64,000 bases of DNA, taken from NCBI GenBank assembly GCA_963840855.1, contig CAWJBB010000001.1:37013-101012 (forward strand), given 5' to 3'. Positions 3,708-21,883 of this stretch are shown here, piece after piece (the stretch's first letter is position 1; each line of letters begins with the position of its first letter). Position numbers and translations under genes: made by a program. The notes beneath the pieces are model-generated. The model saw only the letters and a program-made list of their open reading frames with translations, was not told the DNA's origin and did not search any database. This DNA comes from an uncultured delta proteobacterium (GTDB lineage: Bacteria; Desulfobacterota; Binatia; UBA9968).

Positions 3708-5102
3708 CTACACTTTCTCTGTCGCGCTGAAATTTGGTACCAATTCGTTGGCGTCGAAGATCGTGCGCAGGTCGAGTAGAAAACGGTCGTCTTTGATTCT
3801 GCCGATGACCGGCGGGACGGCGCCGCGAAATTTGGCGGCGATGGCGTTGGCGCTTTGTTTGTCATGTTCAAGCGCGATCACGAACGTGGGCAGTTCTTCG
3901 GTGGGCAGCGCGCCGCTGCCGATTTGTGAAGTGGATTCTTCGACGTAGACCCGAAACTCCTGGCCCAGGGCCGTGCGTAGTTGGGCGGCGGCTTTTTCGC
4001 CCGTAGCACGAATGTCGGCGGGCGAACGGGTGAACGCTCTGAGCGTCGGAATCGCCTGCGCGATGTCCGGCGACTGGCGGTACAGACGCAGTGTCGCTTC
4101 CAGCGCCGCCAAGGTCAGTTTGCCGCAGCGCAATGCCCGCTGCAGAGGATTCTTGTTGATCCGGCCGATGAGTGCTTGCTTGCCGACCATCAAACCCGCT
4201 TGGGGCCCCCCAAGAATTTTGTCGCCGCTAAACGTGATCACGTCGGCGCCGGCAGCGATGCGCTCGGCGACGATGGGTTCCTTGGGCAAGCCGTAACGGC
4301 TGAGATCTATGAGCGCGCCGCTGCCCAGGTCTTCCATGACCGGAAGCTTGTGCCGCTGGCCGATGGCCACCAGCTCTTCGAGGGTGACTTCCGAGGTGAA
4401 GCCGACGACCTTGTAATTGCTGGTGTGGACTTTCAAAAGCAGCGCGGTTTTTTCATCGATGGCGTTCTCGTAGTCGGCCGTATGGGTGCGGTTGGTGCTG
4501 CCGACTTCCTTTAATAGCGCGCCGCTCTTGGCCATGATCTCGGGGATGCGAAAGGCGCCGCCGATCTCGATCAGCTCGCCGCGCGAGACGATGACCTCTT
4601 TGCCTTGGGCAAGGGTGTTGAGACCCAGCAGAACGGCGGCGGCATTATTATTGACTACCGTGGCGGCTTCCGCGCCGGTGAGCTCGACCAGCAGATTTTG
4701 CAGCGTCTCTTCACGCCGCCCGCGCTTGCCGGCGGCGAGATCGTATTCCAAGTTCACCGGGTAGCTGCCCACGGCGGTCATGGCATCGATGGCCTCCGGC
4801 GCCAGCAGCGCCCGCCCCAGATTGGTGTGCAGGATCGTGCCGGTGGCATTGACGACGCGGATATGGCCGGGCCGGCTCTCCGCCGCGATGCGCGCTTCGA
4901 CCTGGCCGATTAATGCATCATCGTCGCTACTCGCGCCCTTCCCTTGCCTGATGGCGGCACGCAATTGATCGAGCGCTTCGCGGCACTTTTGCGTGACATA
5001 GTCGCGGTTGTAGCGGGTTAATAAAATCTCACAGCGCGGATGCTTGAGCAGCCGGTCCACCGAGGGAATTTCGCGCAGGAGATTTGCCGCTGGTTCGGTC
5101 AT
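3708..5102 (-). CDS. selA: L-seryl-tRNA(Sec) selenium transferase
   Basis: VNATGTILHTNLGRA, VNNNAAA, SRGELIEIGG, FSGDKILGGPQAG; start taken at MTEPA. Confidence 0.96.
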   Translation of the reverse strand: MTEPAANLLREIPSVDRLLKHPRCEILLTRYNRDYVTQKCREALDQLRAAIRQGKGASSDDDALIGQVEARIAAESRPGHIRVVNATGTILHTNLGRALLAPEAIDAMTAVGSYPVNLEYDLAAGKRGRREETLQNLLVELTGAEAATVVNNNAAAVLLGLNTLAQGKEVIVSRGELIEIGGAFRIPEIMAKSGALLKEVGSTNRTHTADYENAIDEKTALLLKVHTSNYKVVGFTSEVTLEELVAIGQRHKLPVMEDLGSGALIDLSRYGLPKEPIVAERIAAGADVITFSGDKILGGPQAGLMVGKQALIGRINKNPLQRALRCGKLTLAALEATLRLYRQSPDIAQAIPTLRAFTRSPADIRATGEKAAAQLRTALGQEFRVYVEESTSQIGSGALPTEELPTFVIALEHDKQSANAIAAKFRGAVPPVIGRIKDDRFLLDLRTIFDANELVPNFSATEKV

Positions 5103-5221
5103 ACGAAAAATCAGGTTTGCACAAGGTGGGAGTAAATTCAACATAAGAATATTGCCGCGACTCACGTAAGTAGATGGTCAACACGCGCCCTTGATAAATC
5201 TGATTGCCAGCTCGGTTGACT

Positions 5222-5446
5222 ACTGAATGGCACGCCCTGGTTGATGGCGATACTGTTGTACGGGGCAGGATTGCGGTTCTCCAGAAGGCCGTCAAAGATG
5301 CCTGGCTCAAGGCCAACATCGCGAAGCCAGCTGGCCCGCACACCTTGCGTCATTCCTTTGCGACCCACGTGCGGGCAGATGGCTACGACATCCGGACCGT
5401 GCAGGAACTCCTGGGACACAGCGACGTGAGCACCACGATGGTGTAT
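5222..5446 (+). pseudogene. intI: Integron integrase remnant, internally deleted and cut at the catalytic Tyr
   Basis: [13 protein letters not shown] fused out of frame to VLQKAVK...[11 protein letters not shown]...[22 protein letters not shown]. Confidence 0.8.
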
Positions 5447-5473
5447 TATGCGCAGTGGATGGTTATGTAGAGT
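5444..5473 (+). repeat. RIT left terminal inverted repeat
   Basis: TATTATGCGCAG-TGGATG-GTTATGTAGAGT. Confidence 0.85.
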
Positions 5474-5588
5474 CGCGTCGGTAAGTGCTTGCCTGTCAGG
5501 TCATTTCTCTTTTATCGCAGCACATAAGATTTCACGATGATCTCCTCGGTGGCCATAGGGGTCGCCGCCATTTCAAAGGAGGTCGATC

Positions 5589-6855
5589 ATGGATCAATCC
5601 AATCGTTTAGTTTCGGAGAACTCGCCGCTGGGCCGACTCGTTGAGAATGCCTTGGGCGAGCTCAAGCAGTTAGGGTACAGCAGGAGATCGCTGAATCGGT
5701 ATCGAGCAATATGGGAACACTTCATCGAGTTTTCCCGCCAGAAGAAACTGGGAGTTGAGTTTTCCGGGAATCTGGCAGCTCGCTTTGTGGAGGAGTATCC
5801 GGTTGGGAATGAAGTGGTGGATGAGCCGGGCGAGGAATGGCGGCGGCATATCGTGGTTGCTGTAAAGGTGCTTGCGGACTTTGCTCAATACGGCCGCATC
5901 GGACGTGCCCGCACCGACATCGAAGAGATCCATCTTTGTCCGGCCACAAAGAAGGTGCTTCAGGACTACGAACAGTACTGTAAGGATCGACTTCAGTTTC
6001 GGCCGGCGACCCTTCAAAAGCGTAGCGGGGAACTCACGATCTTTTTGGATTTTCTGAGTTCGAGGAAAGCGAGGACCCTGGGCCAGATTCAGGCGCTGGA
6101 TCTGTCCGAATTCCTGTCTTTTCGGGGTCACTTGAAAGCCGAACACCGTCTCGCGACTGGTCTCGGATGTGCGTTCCTTTCTTCGGTTCCTGACCATGCG
6201 TGGGATTCTCCAAAAAGATCTCAGTGCGGAGTTGCCAACAATCCGTGTTCACAGAGATGCCAGTATCCCCTCGGTGTGGGATCACGAGCTCATCATCAAG
6301 CTGCTCGGGGCGATCGATCGCAGTTCGGCCAAAGGCAAACGGGATTACGCCATTCTCTTGCTGGCATGCCGGTTGGGATTGCGTACCGGGGATATTCGCA
6401 CACTGAAACTGGATCATCTCCATTGGGAAGATTCCAGGATAGAGATTACGCAGTCGAAAACGACCACGCCCCTCAGCCTGCCTCTGACCGAAGAGGTCGG
6501 CGAAGCATTGATCGACTACTTGAGATCGGGTCGTCCCAAAACCGCGCACCGAGAGATCTTCCTCAAATTGAACCCTCCTTTTGATCCTTTTGGTCGAAAC
6601 AACAACCTATACGACGTTGTTACGTATTGGCGCCAACTGGCGGGGATCACATTTCGCACTCCACAAAAGCGAGGAATCCATTCCCTTCGCCACACTCTGG
6701 CAACTCGGCTTCTGGAGCAGGGTACTCCTTTTCCCACCATTGCGGACATCTTGGGGCATACCAGTTTGGAATCGACACGCATTTACGCCAAAGCCGATGT
6801 GGAAGCCTTGCGCAGCGTGGCGTTGGATACTGAGGAGGTGAATCATGCCGAATGA
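5589..6855 (+). CDS. RIT tyrosine recombinase A, frameshift near 6140
   Basis: ORFs 5589-6584 and 6169-6855 join at HLK/PNTVSRLV; RDYAILLL..RLGLR, HSLRH, LGH, RIY. Confidence 0.85.
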
Positions 6856-7828
6856 TCAATCCAGCGCTCAGTTCCAAAGCATCCTCGCTCCTCTCATGGA
6901 CAGATTTGTCCAGGAAAAGAACGCCTGTGGATACCAGTATCATGAGCCAAGCCGAATCTTGCGGTGCCTCGACCATTTGCTGGTCCAGGAAGGGTTGACG
7001 ACCTATGAGTTACCTCGACCCATCGCCCAAAAATGGTTAGCCAAGAGGACCCACGAAAGTCCCAGAACCCAACAGCAACGGGTCATGGTCGTTCGCCAGT
7101 TCTCCAGGTTCCTGTTCCGGCTTGGTTATTCTGCGTATGTGCCCGATTCAACACTGGCTCCACGAGGTCAATCGAGTTTTACACCAAGAATTTTGACTCA
7201 TGAAGAGATTGGAAAGCTCCTTCAAGCCGTGGACGCGCTCGAACCCACCGCACGTTCGCCTCTGCGGCACCTGATTATGCCCGAAGTTTTCCGCCTCCTG
7301 TATGGCTGCGGTTTTCGTCTCGGGGAAGTGTTGAATCTACGTGTCCGAGACGCAGACCTCGATCAAGGTATCGTCACTGTACACCAAGGAAAGTTTAGAA
7401 AAGATCGCCTGGTTCCTCTCGCCCTGTCGCTGGTGAATCGCTTACGCAAGTACGCCGCCCGTTTCGAAAATTGCCCGCTCGATGCGATATTCTTCCCGGC
7501 GCCCGATGCAGGACCCTACAGCTTGCGGACCGTTTACGGCCTGTTTCGTAAACTGCTACTGCAGTGTGGGATTGCTCACGCCGGACGAGGCAAGGGACCC
7601 AGGGTCCACGATCTTCGCCACACCTTCGCAGTCCATACCTTACTGCGTTGGTATCGAGACGGCGAGGATCTCAACGCCAAACTTCCCCTTCTGGCCACCT
7701 ACCTGGGCCATCAGCATCTTTTGGGAACGCAGCGCTATCTTCATCTCACCGCAGAACTTTTTCCCGAGATCACAGCGCGACTCGACGCGGTCTTCGGTGA
7801 GGTCATTCCGAGGAGGATTGAGCTATGA
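6845..7828 (+). CDS. RIT tyrosine recombinase B
   Basis: LYGCGFR, GKFRKDR, HDLRHTFAV, YLGH, TQRYL. Confidence 0.92.
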   Translation: MPNDQSSAQFQSILAPLMDRFVQEKNACGYQYHEPSRILRCLDHLLVQEGLTTYELPRPIAQKWLAKRTHESPRTQQQRVMVVRQFSRFLFRLGYSAYVPDSTLAPRGQSSFTPRILTHEEIGKLLQAVDALEPTARSPLRHLIMPEVFRLLYGCGFRLGEVLNLRVRDADLDQGIVTVHQGKFRKDRLVPLALSLVNRLRKYAARFENCPLDAIFFPAPDAGPYSLRTVYGLFRKLLLQCGIAHAGRGKGPRVHDLRHTFAVHTLLRWYRDGEDLNAKLPLLATYLGHQHLLGTQRYLHLTAELFPEITARLDAVFGEVIPRRIEL

Positions 7829-8835
7829 AACCGACCGATCTCTCAGTTCACGTGACGACCTTTTTGACCCATTACCTGGCCGCACAGCGGAATATGAGCC
7901 CCAATACCATCAAGGCATACCGCGACGTGTTTACTCTCCTTCTCAGATTCTGCCGCGATGTCCAGGGAATCGCGCCGGAAAGACTACGTCTCGAACAGAT
8001 CGATGTTTCTTTGGTGGAAGCGTTCCTGGATTACTTGGAAAGAGAAAGGGGCTCTGCGCCCACTACACGAAACCATCGCCTTGCCGCCCTGCACGCATTT
8101 TTCCGATATGTTCAGTCCGAGGAGCCCGACCGCCTGCTTCAGTGCCAAAAAATCCTCGCCATTCCCCAGCGCCGACACGCCCGTCCGACGGTTGGTTATC
8201 TTTCCAAAGAGGACTTGGGTGAAATTCTGGCGCAGCCGGACCTGACAAATCCAGGGGGCCGAAGAGACGCGGTTTTGCTAAGCATCCTCTACGATACCGG
8301 AGCGCGAGTTCAGGAGCTGATCGATCTTTCAGCGGGAGACGTGCGATTGGATCCACCCGCGCAGGTGCGCCTTATAGGAAAGGGACGCAAGATGCGTGCT
8401 GTACCTTTGATGCAGAAGACCGTCCAGCTCCTACGCGATCATATGCACGAAAACCATTTGGATCGTCCCGAACAGTTTGACCGGCCTCTTTTCCGCAACG
8501 GATGCGACCAACGATTATCCCGTTCTGGAATCCGCTACATCCTTCAAAAACATGTCAGGAAGGCACGAAGCAAGCGTGCGGGTCTGAACCGAACGGTGAC
8601 TCCGCACATGCTTCGCCACACCAAAGGAATGCACCTGTTACAGAGTGGAATCACCCCTGAGATGATCCGGGACTTCCTGGGCCATGTGGACGTCAAAACG
8701 ACTCAGATCTATGCGAGGGCAAATCTTGAGATGAAGCGAAATGCTCTTGAGAGAATCAGCGACTCTTCGCCGGTCCAAGCGATTCCATCCTGGCAACAGA
8801 ACAAGAACCTTCTTGAGTGGCTCCGTTCTTTGTAA
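7825..8835 (+). CDS. RIT tyrosine recombinase C
   Basis: LYDTGARVQE, GKGRK, HMLRH, LGH, TQIYA; ATGA overlap with recombinase B. Confidence 0.92.
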   Translation: MKPTDLSVHVTTFLTHYLAAQRNMSPNTIKAYRDVFTLLLRFCRDVQGIAPERLRLEQIDVSLVEAFLDYLERERGSAPTTRNHRLAALHAFFRYVQSEEPDRLLQCQKILAIPQRRHARPTVGYLSKEDLGEILAQPDLTNPGGRRDAVLLSILYDTGARVQELIDLSAGDVRLDPPAQVRLIGKGRKMRAVPLMQKTVQLLRDHMHENHLDRPEQFDRPLFRNGCDQRLSRSGIRYILQKHVRKARSKRAGLNRTVTPHMLRHTKGMHLLQSGITPEMIRDFLGHVDVKTTQIYARANLEMKRNALERISDSSPVQAIPSWQQNKNLLEWLRSL

Positions 8836-8938
8836 AACATCGGGGGATACCCATGCCAGGTCTGAACCGAGCTCCGCCAACCGCAACCAGATTGTTATGT
8901 GGAGTGCCACCAACCAGATGGCCCTGCAATCAAAAGGG

Positions 8939-9967
8939 TTAGGGCACCTCACTGCGCATAACTACTGTCTGCGCATAATAAATCATGGTAGTCGTCACAT
9001 CCGTGTGACCCAAAAGCTCTTGGACCGTTCGGATATCGTAGCCATCTTCGAGCAAGTGCGTGGCAAAAGAATGGCGAAACGTGTGCGGGCTTGCCGGCTT
9101 GAGAACCCCGGCTTTTTGCACGGCCTCTTTCACCGCCTTCTGCAAGACTGACTCGTGAAGATGGTGCCTGCGCCTCTCCCCCGTTACCCTGTCTGTGTAA
9201 TGGTTGGTCGCCGGAAACACCCACTGCCATCCCCACTCTTTCCCGGCGTTTGGATATTTTCGCTCAAGGGCATTGGGCAGAGCGACTCGACCCAGGCCTC
9301 GCTCGAGATCGCACTGGTGTTGTCGTCTTATCACTTCTAGGTGCTTTGCGAGAGGTTCTTTGACTGCCGCGGGAAGCATTGTGTGCCGATCCTTGTCTCC
9401 CTTACCGGCGCGAACTACGATCTGGTTGCTGGTGAAATCAAGATCCTTGACCCTCAGCCGCAAGCATTCCATCAATCGGACACCGGCTCCATAAAGCAAC
9501 ATGGCCATGATCCAATCGGAGCCGTCGAGGGAAGCGAGAATAGATCTGACTTCCTGCCGTGTCAACACTACCGGGAGCCTGTGCGGCCTTTTCGCCCGAA
9601 CGACACCGTTCACATATCCGATGTCTTTCTTTAAAACCTCACGGTAGAGAAACAGGAGGGCATTGAGGGCTTGGTTCTGAGTGGACGCGCTGACGTGTAA
9701 TTCGGTGGCCAGGCTCGAAAGAAATCCTCCGATTTCTTTTTCACCCATCTCCGCCGGATGGCGTTTGTTGTGAAAGAAAATAAATCGCTTGATCCAATGA
9801 ACATACGCCTTCTCGGTCATATAACTGTAGTGGCGTGTTCGAATCGCCTGGCGCACTTGGTCGAGTAACTTTGGTTTCGCCGATGATGGTAGCACGCTGG
9901 CCGTTGGCGCCGGTTGATTCGCGGAAACTCGGTGTCGGCTCAGTTGGTATACTTTGGCGTTTTCCAT
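8939..9967 (-). pseudogene. intI: Integron integrase with its C-terminal tail replaced by RIT sequence after the catalytic Tyr
   Basis: [20 protein letters not shown], IntI-specific patch [36 protein letters not shown] followed by YAQTVV instead of the usual THV; GGGAGG RBS before ATG 9967. Confidence 0.9.
8951..8980 (-). repeat. RIT right terminal inverted repeat
   Basis: Reverse complement TATTATGCGCAG-ACAGTA-GTTATGCGCAGT. Confidence 0.85.
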
Positions 9968-10079
9968 GGTGTGTCCTCCCGTTGTGTGACTCCATTCCAA
10001 GGGTTCCCGATCACGTGTAGCAAGAAGTCGTAGATCGCTTTTTGCCTGGCAGTCAGTGCGGGACGCATGAAAGGCTATA

Positions 10080-10099
10080 TACTGAAATTAATTACAGTA
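10080..10099. promoter_or_regulatory. LexA-like (SOS) box upstream of intI
   Basis: TACTG-AAATTAATTA-CAGTA, one mismatch to CTGT-N8-ACAG. Confidence 0.5.
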
Positions 10100-14978: not shown

Positions 14979-15010
14979 AAGAACGGACGTTTCTTATTCT
15001 CCTTCGCCGA

Positions 15011-15175
15011 ATACCTCGCAGCTTGGTGCGAGGATGAAGGTGACGAGAACCCTCCGTAGCCTTGGCGAAGGAGGGTGGAAGGGCTTCGGCCTTCGCCGAC
15101 CGAAGTCAGCTACGGCCGACGAAGGTCGGAGAATTTCGCACAGATACCTCGGAGCTTTGCTCCGAGGAGCTTCAT
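15011..15175. repeat. Cluster of REP-like and IS200/605-end-like hairpins
   Basis: CCTCGCA-GCTTGG-TGCGAGG (15014-15033), CCCTCC-GTAGCCTTGGCGAA-GGAGGG (15050-15075), CCTCGGAGC-TTT-GCTCCGAGG (15147-15167). Confidence 0.65.
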
Positions 15176-21415: not shown

Positions 21416-21883
21416 TCAGCCATGGTTACGCGAAACGGCTTTTTCGTCTGATTCGCGGATGTCCTGTGGATCTTTCGGCGGCGGTTGCGCTCCCACCCAA
21501 CCATGTTCAGTGATATCGATCATGACGGCGTCCGGCCCCTTGTACTTTTCTTCGAAGAAGCCGGTTGTCGCCCCCTCAGGGCGACCGAAGCGATACTCCG
21601 CGCCCGACTCTGCCAGACGACGCCGGGTTTCTTCGGCGTCGTCGATCCAAAATCCGAAGTGATGCAAGCCGAACACGGGTCCTAGCCCGTCTTGCCGGTC
21701 CGCGGCCTCTACCGTTTTGAACCGCAGTACCGCCATGTTGATGGTACCATCGCTCAGATAGATCCCCTTGGCGATCGGTGAATCGGTGCGCCCGACTTCG
21801 ACCATGTCAAATACGCGCTTATAAAACTCCGCCGTCTTCTCCGGATCAGGAGTGTGCAGTGCTATATGTCTCAGCTTCGCCAT
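21416..21883 (-). CDS. VOC/glyoxalase family protein
   Basis: LRHIAL, GLHHFGF, GPD..MIDI. Confidence 0.88.
   Translation of the reverse strand: MAKLRHIALHTPDPEKTAEFYKRVFDMVEVGRTDSPIAKGIYLSDGTINMAVLRFKTVEAADRQDGLGPVFGLHHFGFWIDDAEETRRRLAESGAEYRFGRPEGATTGFFEEKYKGPDAVMIDITEHGWVGAQPPPKDPQDIRESDEKAVSRNHG

What the first reader, a model, noticed from the sequence alone, without database searches (positions are those of the whole stretch)
5222..9967. RIT element joins two different integron integrases, both cut at the catalytic Tyr, in opposite orientations
Seen: the left flank reads ...[11 protein letters not shown] into the RIT on the plus strand, and the right flank reads ...[11 protein letters not shown] into it on the minus strand. 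Both junctions are TAT-TATGCGCAG, and neither 3' tail (THV...) is present. A simple insertion would leave the 5' and 3' halves of one gene. Inference: the RIT targets the intI active-site codon, and a later recombination or inversion swapped the flanks. It may therefore switch off integrons and rearrange the chromosome.
Basis: partly seen in the sequence, partly recalled or inferred. Interest (0 to 1): 0.7.

Follow-up and report, generated by a model that had tools for sequence, protein, structure and literature searches.

The report
Recombinase-hunting RIT transposon joining two integrases
A small mobile element carrying three recombinase genes sits between two different integron-integrase genes, both cut exactly at their catalytic tyrosine codon; related elements show this codon is the family's regular landing site, which makes their unknown way of moving testable.

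Summary
A 3,531-bp RIT element (5447-8977; ritA frameshifted) lies between an integron-integrase 3' fragment (+ strand) and a near-complete integron integrase (- strand). Both read into the element, stop at the Tyr codon, and match the family profile only to position 297 of 315.

Relatives show the rule. Of 101 classifiable ends in 78 related loci, 38 abut a tyrosine-recombinase gene body ending at the catalytic Tyr and 46 abut a 20-nt palindrome. In 39 of those 46 the rest of the gene follows. The target is recombinase genes in general, not only intI.

The usual form is body-7mer|RIT|7mer-palindrome-7mer-tail. Public contigs add an uninterrupted allele of the right integrase and an end-to-end joint through the palindrome, as an excised circle would give.

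The window copy is unusual: two bodies, no palindrome, no tails. L013 and L071 look the same, and L035 is the mirror form. The likeliest cause is a second exchange between the palindrome-side site and a second intI, giving a deletion or an inversion. A collapsed-repeat misassembly is not excluded.

Earlier reports of this scan noted RIT end palindromes and motif-homing in other RIT clades, but not this target.

The parts
5204..5446 (+). 3' fragment of a second integron-integrase gene (intI_L). Homology is firm from about 5273. The frame ends at the catalytic Tyr codon TAT (5444-5446). The 5' part of the gene is missing, and the selA start lies at 5165.
   Evidence: ORF; TIGR02249 positions 241-297 of 315, 90.2 bits; 72-74% identical to intI_R.
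5440..5446 (+). Left 7-mer GGTGTAT, the proposed crossover (overlap) sequence beside the left RIT end.
   Evidence: In public runs X3 and X17 the same 7-mer lies between the palindrome and the left end. An unrelated intact intI has ...ATGGTGTAT followed by its native tail.
5447..8977 (+). RIT (recombinase in trio) element, 3,531 bp.
   Evidence: The boundaries are fixed by the uninterrupted allele and by the palindrome joints.
5447..5472 (+). Left terminal repeats: TATGCGCAG at 5447 and TATGTAGAG at 5464, both direct.
   Evidence: conserved among relatives.
5589..6855 (+). ritA, split into two frames (5589-6584 and 6169-6855) by one extra A in the A-run at 6135-6137.
   Evidence: Contigs of all 4 runs laid lack one letter at 6135. 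In L007 the two ritA matches lie in a single frame (308-1570).
6845..7828 (+). ritB, a tyrosine recombinase.
7825..8835 (+). ritC, a tyrosine recombinase.
   Evidence: One search gave 80 related loci at 67-93% identity.
8952..8977 (-). Right terminal repeats: CTGCGCATA at 8952 and 8969 on the + strand. A third motif copy in the opposite orientation lies at 8896.
8978..8984 (-). Right 7-mer, ATAAATC on the + strand (GATTTAT in gene sense). It is the proposed crossover sequence and includes the Tyr codon.
   Evidence: Loose ends of contigs in X16 and X17 read a native tail right next to it.
8978..9967 (-). Integron integrase intI_R, from the ATG at 9967 to the catalytic Tyr codon at 8978-8980. 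The C-terminal tail is replaced by 12 codons of RIT-end sequence (to 8939).
   Evidence: (TIGR02249, 440.7 bits, positions 1-297 of 315).
10009..10099 (-). Remnant of the first ~20 codons of a lexA gene with a CTG-N10-CAG box (10080-10099), directly upstream of intI_R. This is context, not part of the RIT.

Best explanation
The element belongs to a RIT clade whose regular integration site is the catalytic-tyrosine codon of other tyrosine-recombinase genes, integron integrases among them.

The normal product is: gene body - 7-mer | RIT, in either orientation | inverted 7-mer - 20-nt palindrome - 7-mer - gene tail. I read the palindrome with its two flanking 7-mers as the joint of the excised circle. 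On that reading it holds two mirror-image attachment sites, each made of a palindrome arm, a 7-bp overlap and a terminal repeat. Integration would be an ordinary tyrosine-recombinase exchange in one 7-bp overlap, so the palindrome always ends up on the tail side.

In the window, the RIT entered one intI in this way. The unused, palindrome-side site then recombined with the same codon of a second, convergent intI that carried a matching 7-mer. That second exchange removed both tails, the palindrome and whatever lay between them. Had the second gene lain elsewhere, the result would have been an inversion. What remains is body - RIT - body.

Shown here: the target rule, the canonical architecture, the uninterrupted allele, and the end-palindrome-end joint. 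Inferred: the exchange point, the order of events, and deletion rather than inversion.
For: Window anatomy.

Survey of relatives. One search found 164 relatives and kept 80 loci. Of 101 classifiable ends in 78 loci, 38 abut a recombinase body ending at Tyr, 46 abut the palindrome, and 17 abut something else. Among the 37 loci with both ends classified, 22 are body+palindrome, with the RIT in either orientation (12 and 10).

Targets. Of 33 body ORFs of 100 aa or more, 23 match PF00589. Of these, 22 end at model position 165 of 172 and one ends at 163. Nine match PF12835/PF12834 and one matches nothing. At 39 of the 46 palindrome flanks an x-Tyr codon and a gene tail follow the outer 7-mer. For example, IYTHVLNRGGR follows in L007 and L043, and IYTHVLNKGGK in L035.

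A complete, named example is plasmid pHG1 of Cupriavidus necator H16.

Public contigs. In X17 one contig joins 8984 to 5440 through 20 letters that form the palindrome. The two 7-mers in that joint are the same two that flank the window's RIT. In X16 and X17, loose ends at 8978 and 8982 read a native ...IYTHVLNRGG tail, that is, an uninterrupted allele. In X1 and X16 the palindrome follows the right end, and in X3 it precedes the left end.

The unusual form recurs. L013 and L071 also have two bodies, and L035 has two tails with two palindromes.

The own genome holds no second RIT, no palindrome and no RIT-type junction elsewhere. This favours loss of the reciprocal product.
Against: No reads from the source sample were seen. 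The contiguity of the two flanks through the 3.5-kb element therefore rests on the assembly alone (none of the 4 runs laid covers both flanks well).

The left integrase piece keeps only about 60-80 codons. A further, unexplained deletion towards selA is needed.

Synteny with two same-genus genomes shows only that this is a variable region. It does not show an ancestral pair of convergent intI genes.

Seventeen of the 101 ends are neither body nor palindrome, so the rule is not absolute.

The 7-mers on the body side and tail side often differ at one or more positions, so the exact exchange point is not fixed.

The X17 joint could come from a head-to-tail tandem rather than a circle.

ritA is frameshifted in this copy, so the element may no longer be active. 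The extra base sits in an A-run and could also be a consensus error.
Confidence: 0.55

Rival explanations
1. Two RIT copies sat in two different intI genes in inverted orientation. Recombination between the copies, homologous or site-specific, inverted the segment between them. One copy ended up with two bodies (the window) and the other with two tails and two palindromes.
For: L035 shows exactly the predicted reciprocal form, tail-palindrome-RIT-palindrome-tail. Two further body-RIT-body loci exist (L013, L071). Several genomes hold multiple RIT copies (L014/L015, L022-L024).
Against: The 94%-complete assembly holds no second RIT, no palindrome and no RIT end elsewhere. The only orphan intI tail (C4) has no palindrome and starts about 9 nt after the Tyr codon position.
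Confidence: 0.22
2. This is an assembly artefact. Two canonical RIT insertions, one in each intI, were collapsed into a single path through the 3.5-kb repeat, which joined the two body-side flanks.
For: The genome is a metagenome bin with 8.3% contamination. Near-identical RITs occur in runs from 11 studies. L071, another two-body case, is a contig of only 4.4 kb. No source reads were available to check.
Against: Each junction is locally unique: body + 7-mer + end-specific repeats. Only a join through the RIT interior could be false. The leftover palindrome-tail flanks that a collapse would strand at contig ends are absent from the assembly. Both flanks have same-genus orthologues. That contigs in short-read assemblies usually break at such repeats is my own knowledge; it fits the several RIT-only contigs of about 3.5 kb listed.
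Confidence: 0.13
3. The integrase-like arms are the RIT's own long terminal inverted repeats, so the left fragment travels with the element.
For: the repeat finder reports 144-nt inverted arms at 75% complementarity. From my recollection of the abstract of Ricker 2013 (paper not held), RITs have long imperfect inverted repeats.
Against: Relatives carry unrelated flanks at the same boundary, namely different recombinase families or the palindrome. In X3 and X17 the left end is preceded by the palindrome and not by the fragment. The uninterrupted allele places the element boundary at 8977/8978.
Confidence: 0.02

Closest known systems
RIT (recombinase in trio) elements, such as ritABC of Cupriavidus metallidurans CH34 and C. 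necator H16 pHG1 (Van Houdt et al. 2012, PMC3414803, passages read; Ricker et al. 2013, not held)
   Same: Three adjacent, overlapping tyrosine-recombinase genes in the order A-B-C, a length of about 3.5 kb, terminal inverted repeats, and a palindrome at one end. The pHG1 copy at 51.4-54.7 kb aligns over 94% of the element at 66% identity and has the same flank architecture.
   Different: In the passages I read, target specificity is listed as not tested (PMC10214605, Table 1). The ends are described only as a 28-29 bp inverted repeat with an overlapping palindrome (PMC3414803). Here the clade has a defined target, the catalytic Tyr codon of recombinase genes. The window copy has lost the palindrome and joins two targets.
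Tn554 and the SE/GInt tyrosine-recombinase transposons (PMC10214605, passages read)
   Same: Site-specific insertion by several tyrosine recombinases. A short flank sequence (6 bp in SE and Tn554) is carried from the old site to the new one. This resembles the 7-mers that travel with this RIT.
   Different: The gene sets differ (TnpABC; IntA/Tfp/IntB/Srap). Those elements have no palindrome-centred double site, and their targets are not recombinase genes in the passages I read.
Other RIT clades reported earlier in this scan (e1-3915475, e1-757615: Arg-His codons of recombinase genes; e1-1387104: HUH motif of Y1 transposases)
   Same: Homing to DNA that encodes a conserved catalytic motif of another mobile element's enzyme, a built-in end palindrome, and flanks that can be swapped (e1-1387104 describes two outward-facing gene ends).
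   Different: The target motif here is the catalytic Tyr codon. Those are unchecked AI notes. I saw only the nested RITs that interrupt ritB near residues 253-260 in L076, L082 and L083.
Deletions and inversions produced when a transposon end or an integrated att site reacts with a second target in the same molecule (own knowledge of IS elements and site-specific recombination)
   Same: A second reaction of one element end with a nearby target deletes or inverts the DNA between them and leaves the element joined to a new flank.
   Different: Here the second target would be chosen by sequence (the same codon of a paralogous gene), and the reaction would be conservative tyrosine-recombinase exchange. 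This step is inferred and not shown.

Membership tests
RIT (recombinase in trio) element | Three adjacent tyrosine-recombinase genes, ritA-ritB-ritC, on one strand with short overlaps | tested here: met
   ORFs at 5589-6855 (frameshifted), 6845-7828 and 7825-8835. All match PF00589. The B/C overlap is 4 nt and the A/B overlap is 11 nt.
RIT (recombinase in trio) element | Each protein keeps the R...HxxR...Y catalytic pattern | tested here: met
   HSLRH...RIY in RitA, HDLRH...QRY in RitB and HMLRH...QIY in RitC, read from the translations. The PF00589 alignments run to model positions 169-170.
RIT (recombinase in trio) element | Length of about 3.5 kb with terminal inverted repeats | tested here: met
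   The element is 3,531 bp. The ends carry TATGCGCAG plus a second motif copy, and a third motif copy in the opposite orientation lies inside the right end (8896).
RIT (recombinase in trio) element | Palindrome adjoining one end | tested here: not met
   The palindrome is absent from the window and from the whole assembly. It is present at 46 of 101 classified ends of relatives, and beside near-identical copies in X1, X3, X16 and X17. I read the window copy as a rearranged derivative.
RIT (recombinase in trio) element | All three genes intact | tested here: not met
   ritA has a +1 frameshift in an A-run at 6135-6137. Contigs of all 4 runs laid lack that base. It may be a real mutation or a consensus error.
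Integron integrase (IntI), right gene | Score above the curated cutoff of TIGR02249 | tested here: met
   440.7 bits against a cutoff of 265, covering profile positions 1-297 of 315.
Integron integrase (IntI), right gene | Complete C-terminus after the catalytic Tyr | tested here: not met
   The last 18 profile positions are replaced by 12 RIT-encoded residues. Native tails are seen in public contigs.
Integron integrase (IntI), left fragment | Score above the curated cutoff, and the IntI-specific extra domain | tested here: inconclusive
   Only 57 profile positions remain (90.2 bits, below the cutoff of 265). TIGR02249 is the best-scoring family, and the fragment is 72-74% identical to the right gene. 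The extra domain lies in the missing part.
Integron (platform with attI and cassette array) | attI and attC-bounded cassettes next to intI | not tested
   No attC search was run. The genes to the right (10574 onward) lie on the opposite strand and are syntenic in a same-genus genome, so an array is unlikely.

The most novel reading that the evidence does not exclude
RITs of this clade are recombinase hunters. Their palindrome-centred double attachment site lets a single element capture two different recombinase genes at the catalytic-tyrosine codon and delete or invert everything between them. They would thus silence rival mobile elements and integrons, and also act as sequence-guided engines of genome rearrangement. 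On this reading the window shows one such product, and L035 shows the reciprocal type.
Probability: 0.45. Interest if true: 0.8.

Novelty: new variant of a known kind. Interest (0 to 1): 0.66.

Why it matters
RIT elements are widespread, but how they move and what they target were still listed as untested in a 2023 comparison of tyrosine-recombinase transposons (PMC10214605, Table 1).

This locus and its relatives supply three things. They give a defined target, the catalytic Tyr codon of other tyrosine-recombinase genes. They give a concrete site architecture, a palindrome flanked by two 7-bp overlaps. They also give natural examples of an uninterrupted allele and of an end-to-end joint. Together these turn the question into simple bench tests.

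The biology is notable too. One mobile element disables the recombinases of others, including integron integrases. It can also join two such genes, so it may reshape genomes at predictable points.

In the four literature searches I ran and the passages I read, no paper states this target rule. Ricker et al. 2013 could not be read and may bear on this.

Tried and rejected
1. The left fragment as part of the RIT's own inverted repeat. Rejected, because relatives and public contigs carry other flanks at the same boundary.

2. A search of the own genome for a second RIT, RIT ends, the palindrome or orphan tails. It found none, apart from a native tail on the internally deleted intI remnant of C21 and an orphan tail on C4 with no palindrome.

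3. Reconstructing the ancestral arrangement from two same-genus genomes. The selA flank and the RraA-like flank lie on different contigs there and have unrelated neighbours and no intI. The result is inconclusive.

4. A scan of JGI metagenome contigs for the last 24 nt of the left fragment. It returned one unrelated, intact intI (78% over 108 nt). No independent copy of the left junction turned up.

5. Public runs. I laid 4 of the 24 runs listed. None covers both flanks well, so the contiguity of the window through the RIT was neither confirmed nor refuted. A low-depth X1 joint, 5219 to 5377, was not followed up.

6. Ricker et al. 2013 is not held.

7. One search failed because a reference was in the wrong frame. 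I repeated the scan without that reference.

8. No structure prediction or complex prediction was run, because neither would bear on the question.
Full report
WHAT IS THERE

The window holds, from left to right:
- selA on the - strand (3708-5165);
- an open frame at 5204-5446 (+) ending ...[11 protein letters not shown];
- three tyrosine-recombinase genes on the + strand: 5589-6855 (split by a frameshift), 6845-7828 and 7825-8835;
- a long ORF on the - strand whose ATG lies at 9967 and which reads ...[11 protein letters not shown] into the element.

The - strand gene is an integron integrase. TIGR02249 scores 440.7 bits against a cutoff of 265, but the match covers only profile positions 1-297 of 315. 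The left frame matches positions 241-297 of the same profile. Both genes therefore stop at the same position, the catalytic Tyr. Both are followed by TATGCGCAG, the first letters of the element's inverted ends.

The two pieces are 72-74% identical in protein and 73-75% in DNA, so they come from different genes.

THE ELEMENT

The 3,531 bp from 5447 to 8977 have the features of a RIT element. There are three overlapping recombinase genes in a row, each with the HxxR and Tyr motifs. The ends carry two direct copies of a 9-mer (5447 and 5464; 8952 and 8969). A third copy in the opposite orientation lies at 8896.

ritA carries one extra A in an A-run at 6135-6137. Contigs from all four public runs laid lack that base, and also lack one A in a run at 8932. 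The frameshift is therefore private to this assembly. It is either a recent slip or a consensus error.

The assembly holds one RIT only. No RIT match appears among the listed matches in 20 related genomes (126 weaker matches were not listed).

WHAT RELATIVES SHOW

A scan of one genome per species with RitC found 164 relatives, and the best 80 loci were kept (67-93% identity). I located the ends by alignment to the window's ends and sorted the flanks.
- In 78 loci there were 156 possible ends. Of these, 28 lay outside the locus and 27 had a weak anchor or a short flank.
- Of the 101 ends that could be classified, 38 abut an open frame ending ...GH(7-10 residues)Y at the junction, 46 abut a 20-nt palindrome (most often AAATGTGCWGCWGCACATTT), and 17 abut something else.
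- A few of the 17 are bodies that my pattern missed. L022 has an in-frame stop, and L049 is shifted by two letters.

Of the 38 body frames, 33 have 100 aa or more, and these were scanned in Pfam.
- 23 match PF00589. Of these, 22 end at model position 165 of 172 and one ends at 163.
- 9 match PF12835/PF12834, a second integrase family.
- One matches nothing.

In NCBIfam I scanned 28 of the 33, leaving out five near-duplicates. Only L033 passes the integron-integrase cutoff. Integrase-type flanks also appear in L007, L009, L035, L043 and L071, as short bodies or IYTHV... tails. The target is therefore the Tyr codon of tyrosine-recombinase genes in general, and integron integrases are one class among them.

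THE CANONICAL ARCHITECTURE

Beyond the palindrome, 39 of 46 flanks continue with an x-Tyr codon and a plausible gene tail. In L033, for example, the body ends ...STTMIY at one end of the RIT. At the other end the palindrome is followed by VYTHVMNRGGR.

Among the 37 loci with both ends classified:
- 22 have a body at one end and the palindrome at the other, with the palindrome on the ritA side in 12 and on the ritC side in 10;
- 12 have one unclassified flank;
- 2 have two bodies (L013, L071);
- 1 has two palindromes and two tails (L035).

Read in gene sense, the usual insertion is: body - 7-mer | RIT | inverted 7-mer - palindrome - 7-mer - tail. All the 7-mers end in TAY. The body-side and tail-side 7-mers agree at 6 or 7 positions in 10 of 22 loci. 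The body-side and inner 7-mers are identical in 8 of 22 (two loci were out of register). In genomes with several copies the same 7-mers recur beside different flanks (L022-L024), which suggests that they travel with the element.

The archetypal plasmid pHG1 of Cupriavidus necator H16 shows the same layout in a finished sequence. The palindrome and a 7-mer lie left of ritA, and a recombinase body ending ...STTERY lies right of ritC.

EVIDENCE FROM PUBLIC RUNS

Twenty runs from 11 studies hold part of the stretch. I laid Logan contigs of four of them.
- In X17 one contig runs from the ritC side to 8984, then through 20 letters that form the palindrome, and on from 5440 into the ritA side. This is the joint expected of an excised circle or of a head-to-tail tandem. 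It carries the same two 7-mers that flank the window's element.
- In X16 and X17, contigs that match the right integrase stop matching at 8978 and 8982. Their loose ends read on into a native ...IYTHVLNRGG tail. That is an uninterrupted allele, and it places the element boundary at 8977/8978.
- In X1 and X16 the right end is followed by the palindrome. In X3 the left end is preceded by it.
- X3 also holds a short derivative that joins 5604 to 8804.

None of the four runs covers both flanks of the window well. The join of the two flanks through the element therefore rests on the assembly alone.

HOW IT MOST LIKELY WORKS

I read the palindrome with its two 7-mers as the circle joint. On that reading it holds two mirror-image attachment sites, each made of a palindrome arm, a 7-bp overlap and a terminal repeat. 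An exchange in one overlap with the matching codon region of a target gene gives the canonical product. It explains why the element sits in either orientation while the palindrome is always on the tail side. These steps are inferred from anatomy. The literature I could read lists RIT target specificity and movement as untested (PMC10214605). It mentions only a 28-29 bp inverted repeat with an overlapping palindrome (PMC3414803), and a mobilome study found no circle junction (PMC5737581).

The window lacks the palindrome and both tails. The simplest route is a second exchange between the unused, palindrome-side site and the same codon of a second intI. If the second gene was convergent and nearby, the exchange deletes both tails, the palindrome and the DNA between them. 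The left 7-mer GGTGTAT is found beside the palindrome in X3 and X17. It also occurs as the native sequence before the tail in an unrelated intact intI, so matching overlaps were available. The absence of any palindrome, second RIT or RIT-type junction elsewhere in the 94%-complete assembly favours a lost reciprocal product, though only weakly.

RIVALS

A collapse of two canonical copies during assembly cannot be excluded without source reads. Against it, each junction is locally unique, and the palindrome-tail flanks that a collapse would strand at contig ends are missing. The idea that the integrase-like arms belong to the element is contradicted by the relatives and by the uninterrupted allele.

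WHAT REMAINS UNEXPLAINED

The left integrase piece keeps only 60-80 codons and adjoins the selA upstream region. Two same-genus genomes carry unrelated DNA next to selA and next to the RraA-like gene, and no intI there. The region is therefore variable, and the history cannot be rebuilt from these data.

COMPARISON AND NOVELTY

This is a member of a known element type, in a rearranged form. What I did not find in print is the target rule and the two-target product (searches; passages read; Ricker et al. 2013 not held).

Earlier reports of this scan describe the end palindrome as a built-in part of RITs. They also describe other clades that home to the Arg-His codons of recombinase genes, to HUH-motif DNA, to DDE transposase genes and to ardC. 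None describes a RIT at the Tyr codon. I reached the model before reading those notes, and they agree with it.

Noticed in passing
window 10009-10099: Directly upstream of the integron integrase lies a remnant of the first ~20 codons of a lexA gene ([20 protein letters not shown], - strand) with a CTG-N10-CAG box at 10080-10099. It is 85-87% identical to the start and promoter of a full-length lexA on contig C21 (L003 952-1560). That the box is a LexA (SOS) operator is my recollection of the consensus and was not tested.
   Followed up: partly
G000 contig C21 55439-56100 (L002) and contig C4 about 21500-21560: A third integron-integrase gene on C21 has an internal deletion but keeps its native IYTHVLNRGG tail. 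On C4 an orphan integrase tail (VLNRGGRGVQSPADRLM) about 90% identical to it stands alone, with no palindrome beside it.
   Followed up: partly
window 14990-15175: A short repeat of about 100-190 nt occurs at 96-98% identity on many contigs of the same genome (C40, C47, C65, C67, C77, C78, C85 and others) and in a same-genus genome. It is probably a miniature mobile element.
   Followed up: no
L076 2171-5777, L082 2357-5777, L083 2353-5786: In three related loci ritB is interrupted near residues 253-260 (the HDLRH region) by a second, distantly related RIT (38-42% RitC identity). This is a RIT nested within a RIT at another catalytic motif.
   Followed up: no
public run X3, joint 5604 to 8804 of the window: A contig joins the left 160 nt of the element to the right 175 nt, with 15 other letters between. 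It looks like a miniature, gene-less derivative of this RIT.
   Followed up: no
L064 6001-10983: Two related RIT copies (68-69% RitC identity to the window's) lie tail to tail in opposite orientation, about 730 nt apart, on one chromosome.
   Followed up: no
L012, L026, L067, L068, L078: Some relatives have the palindrome at one end but a flank at the other end that does not look like a recombinase gene. Not every member of the clade uses the Tyr-codon target.
   Followed up: no
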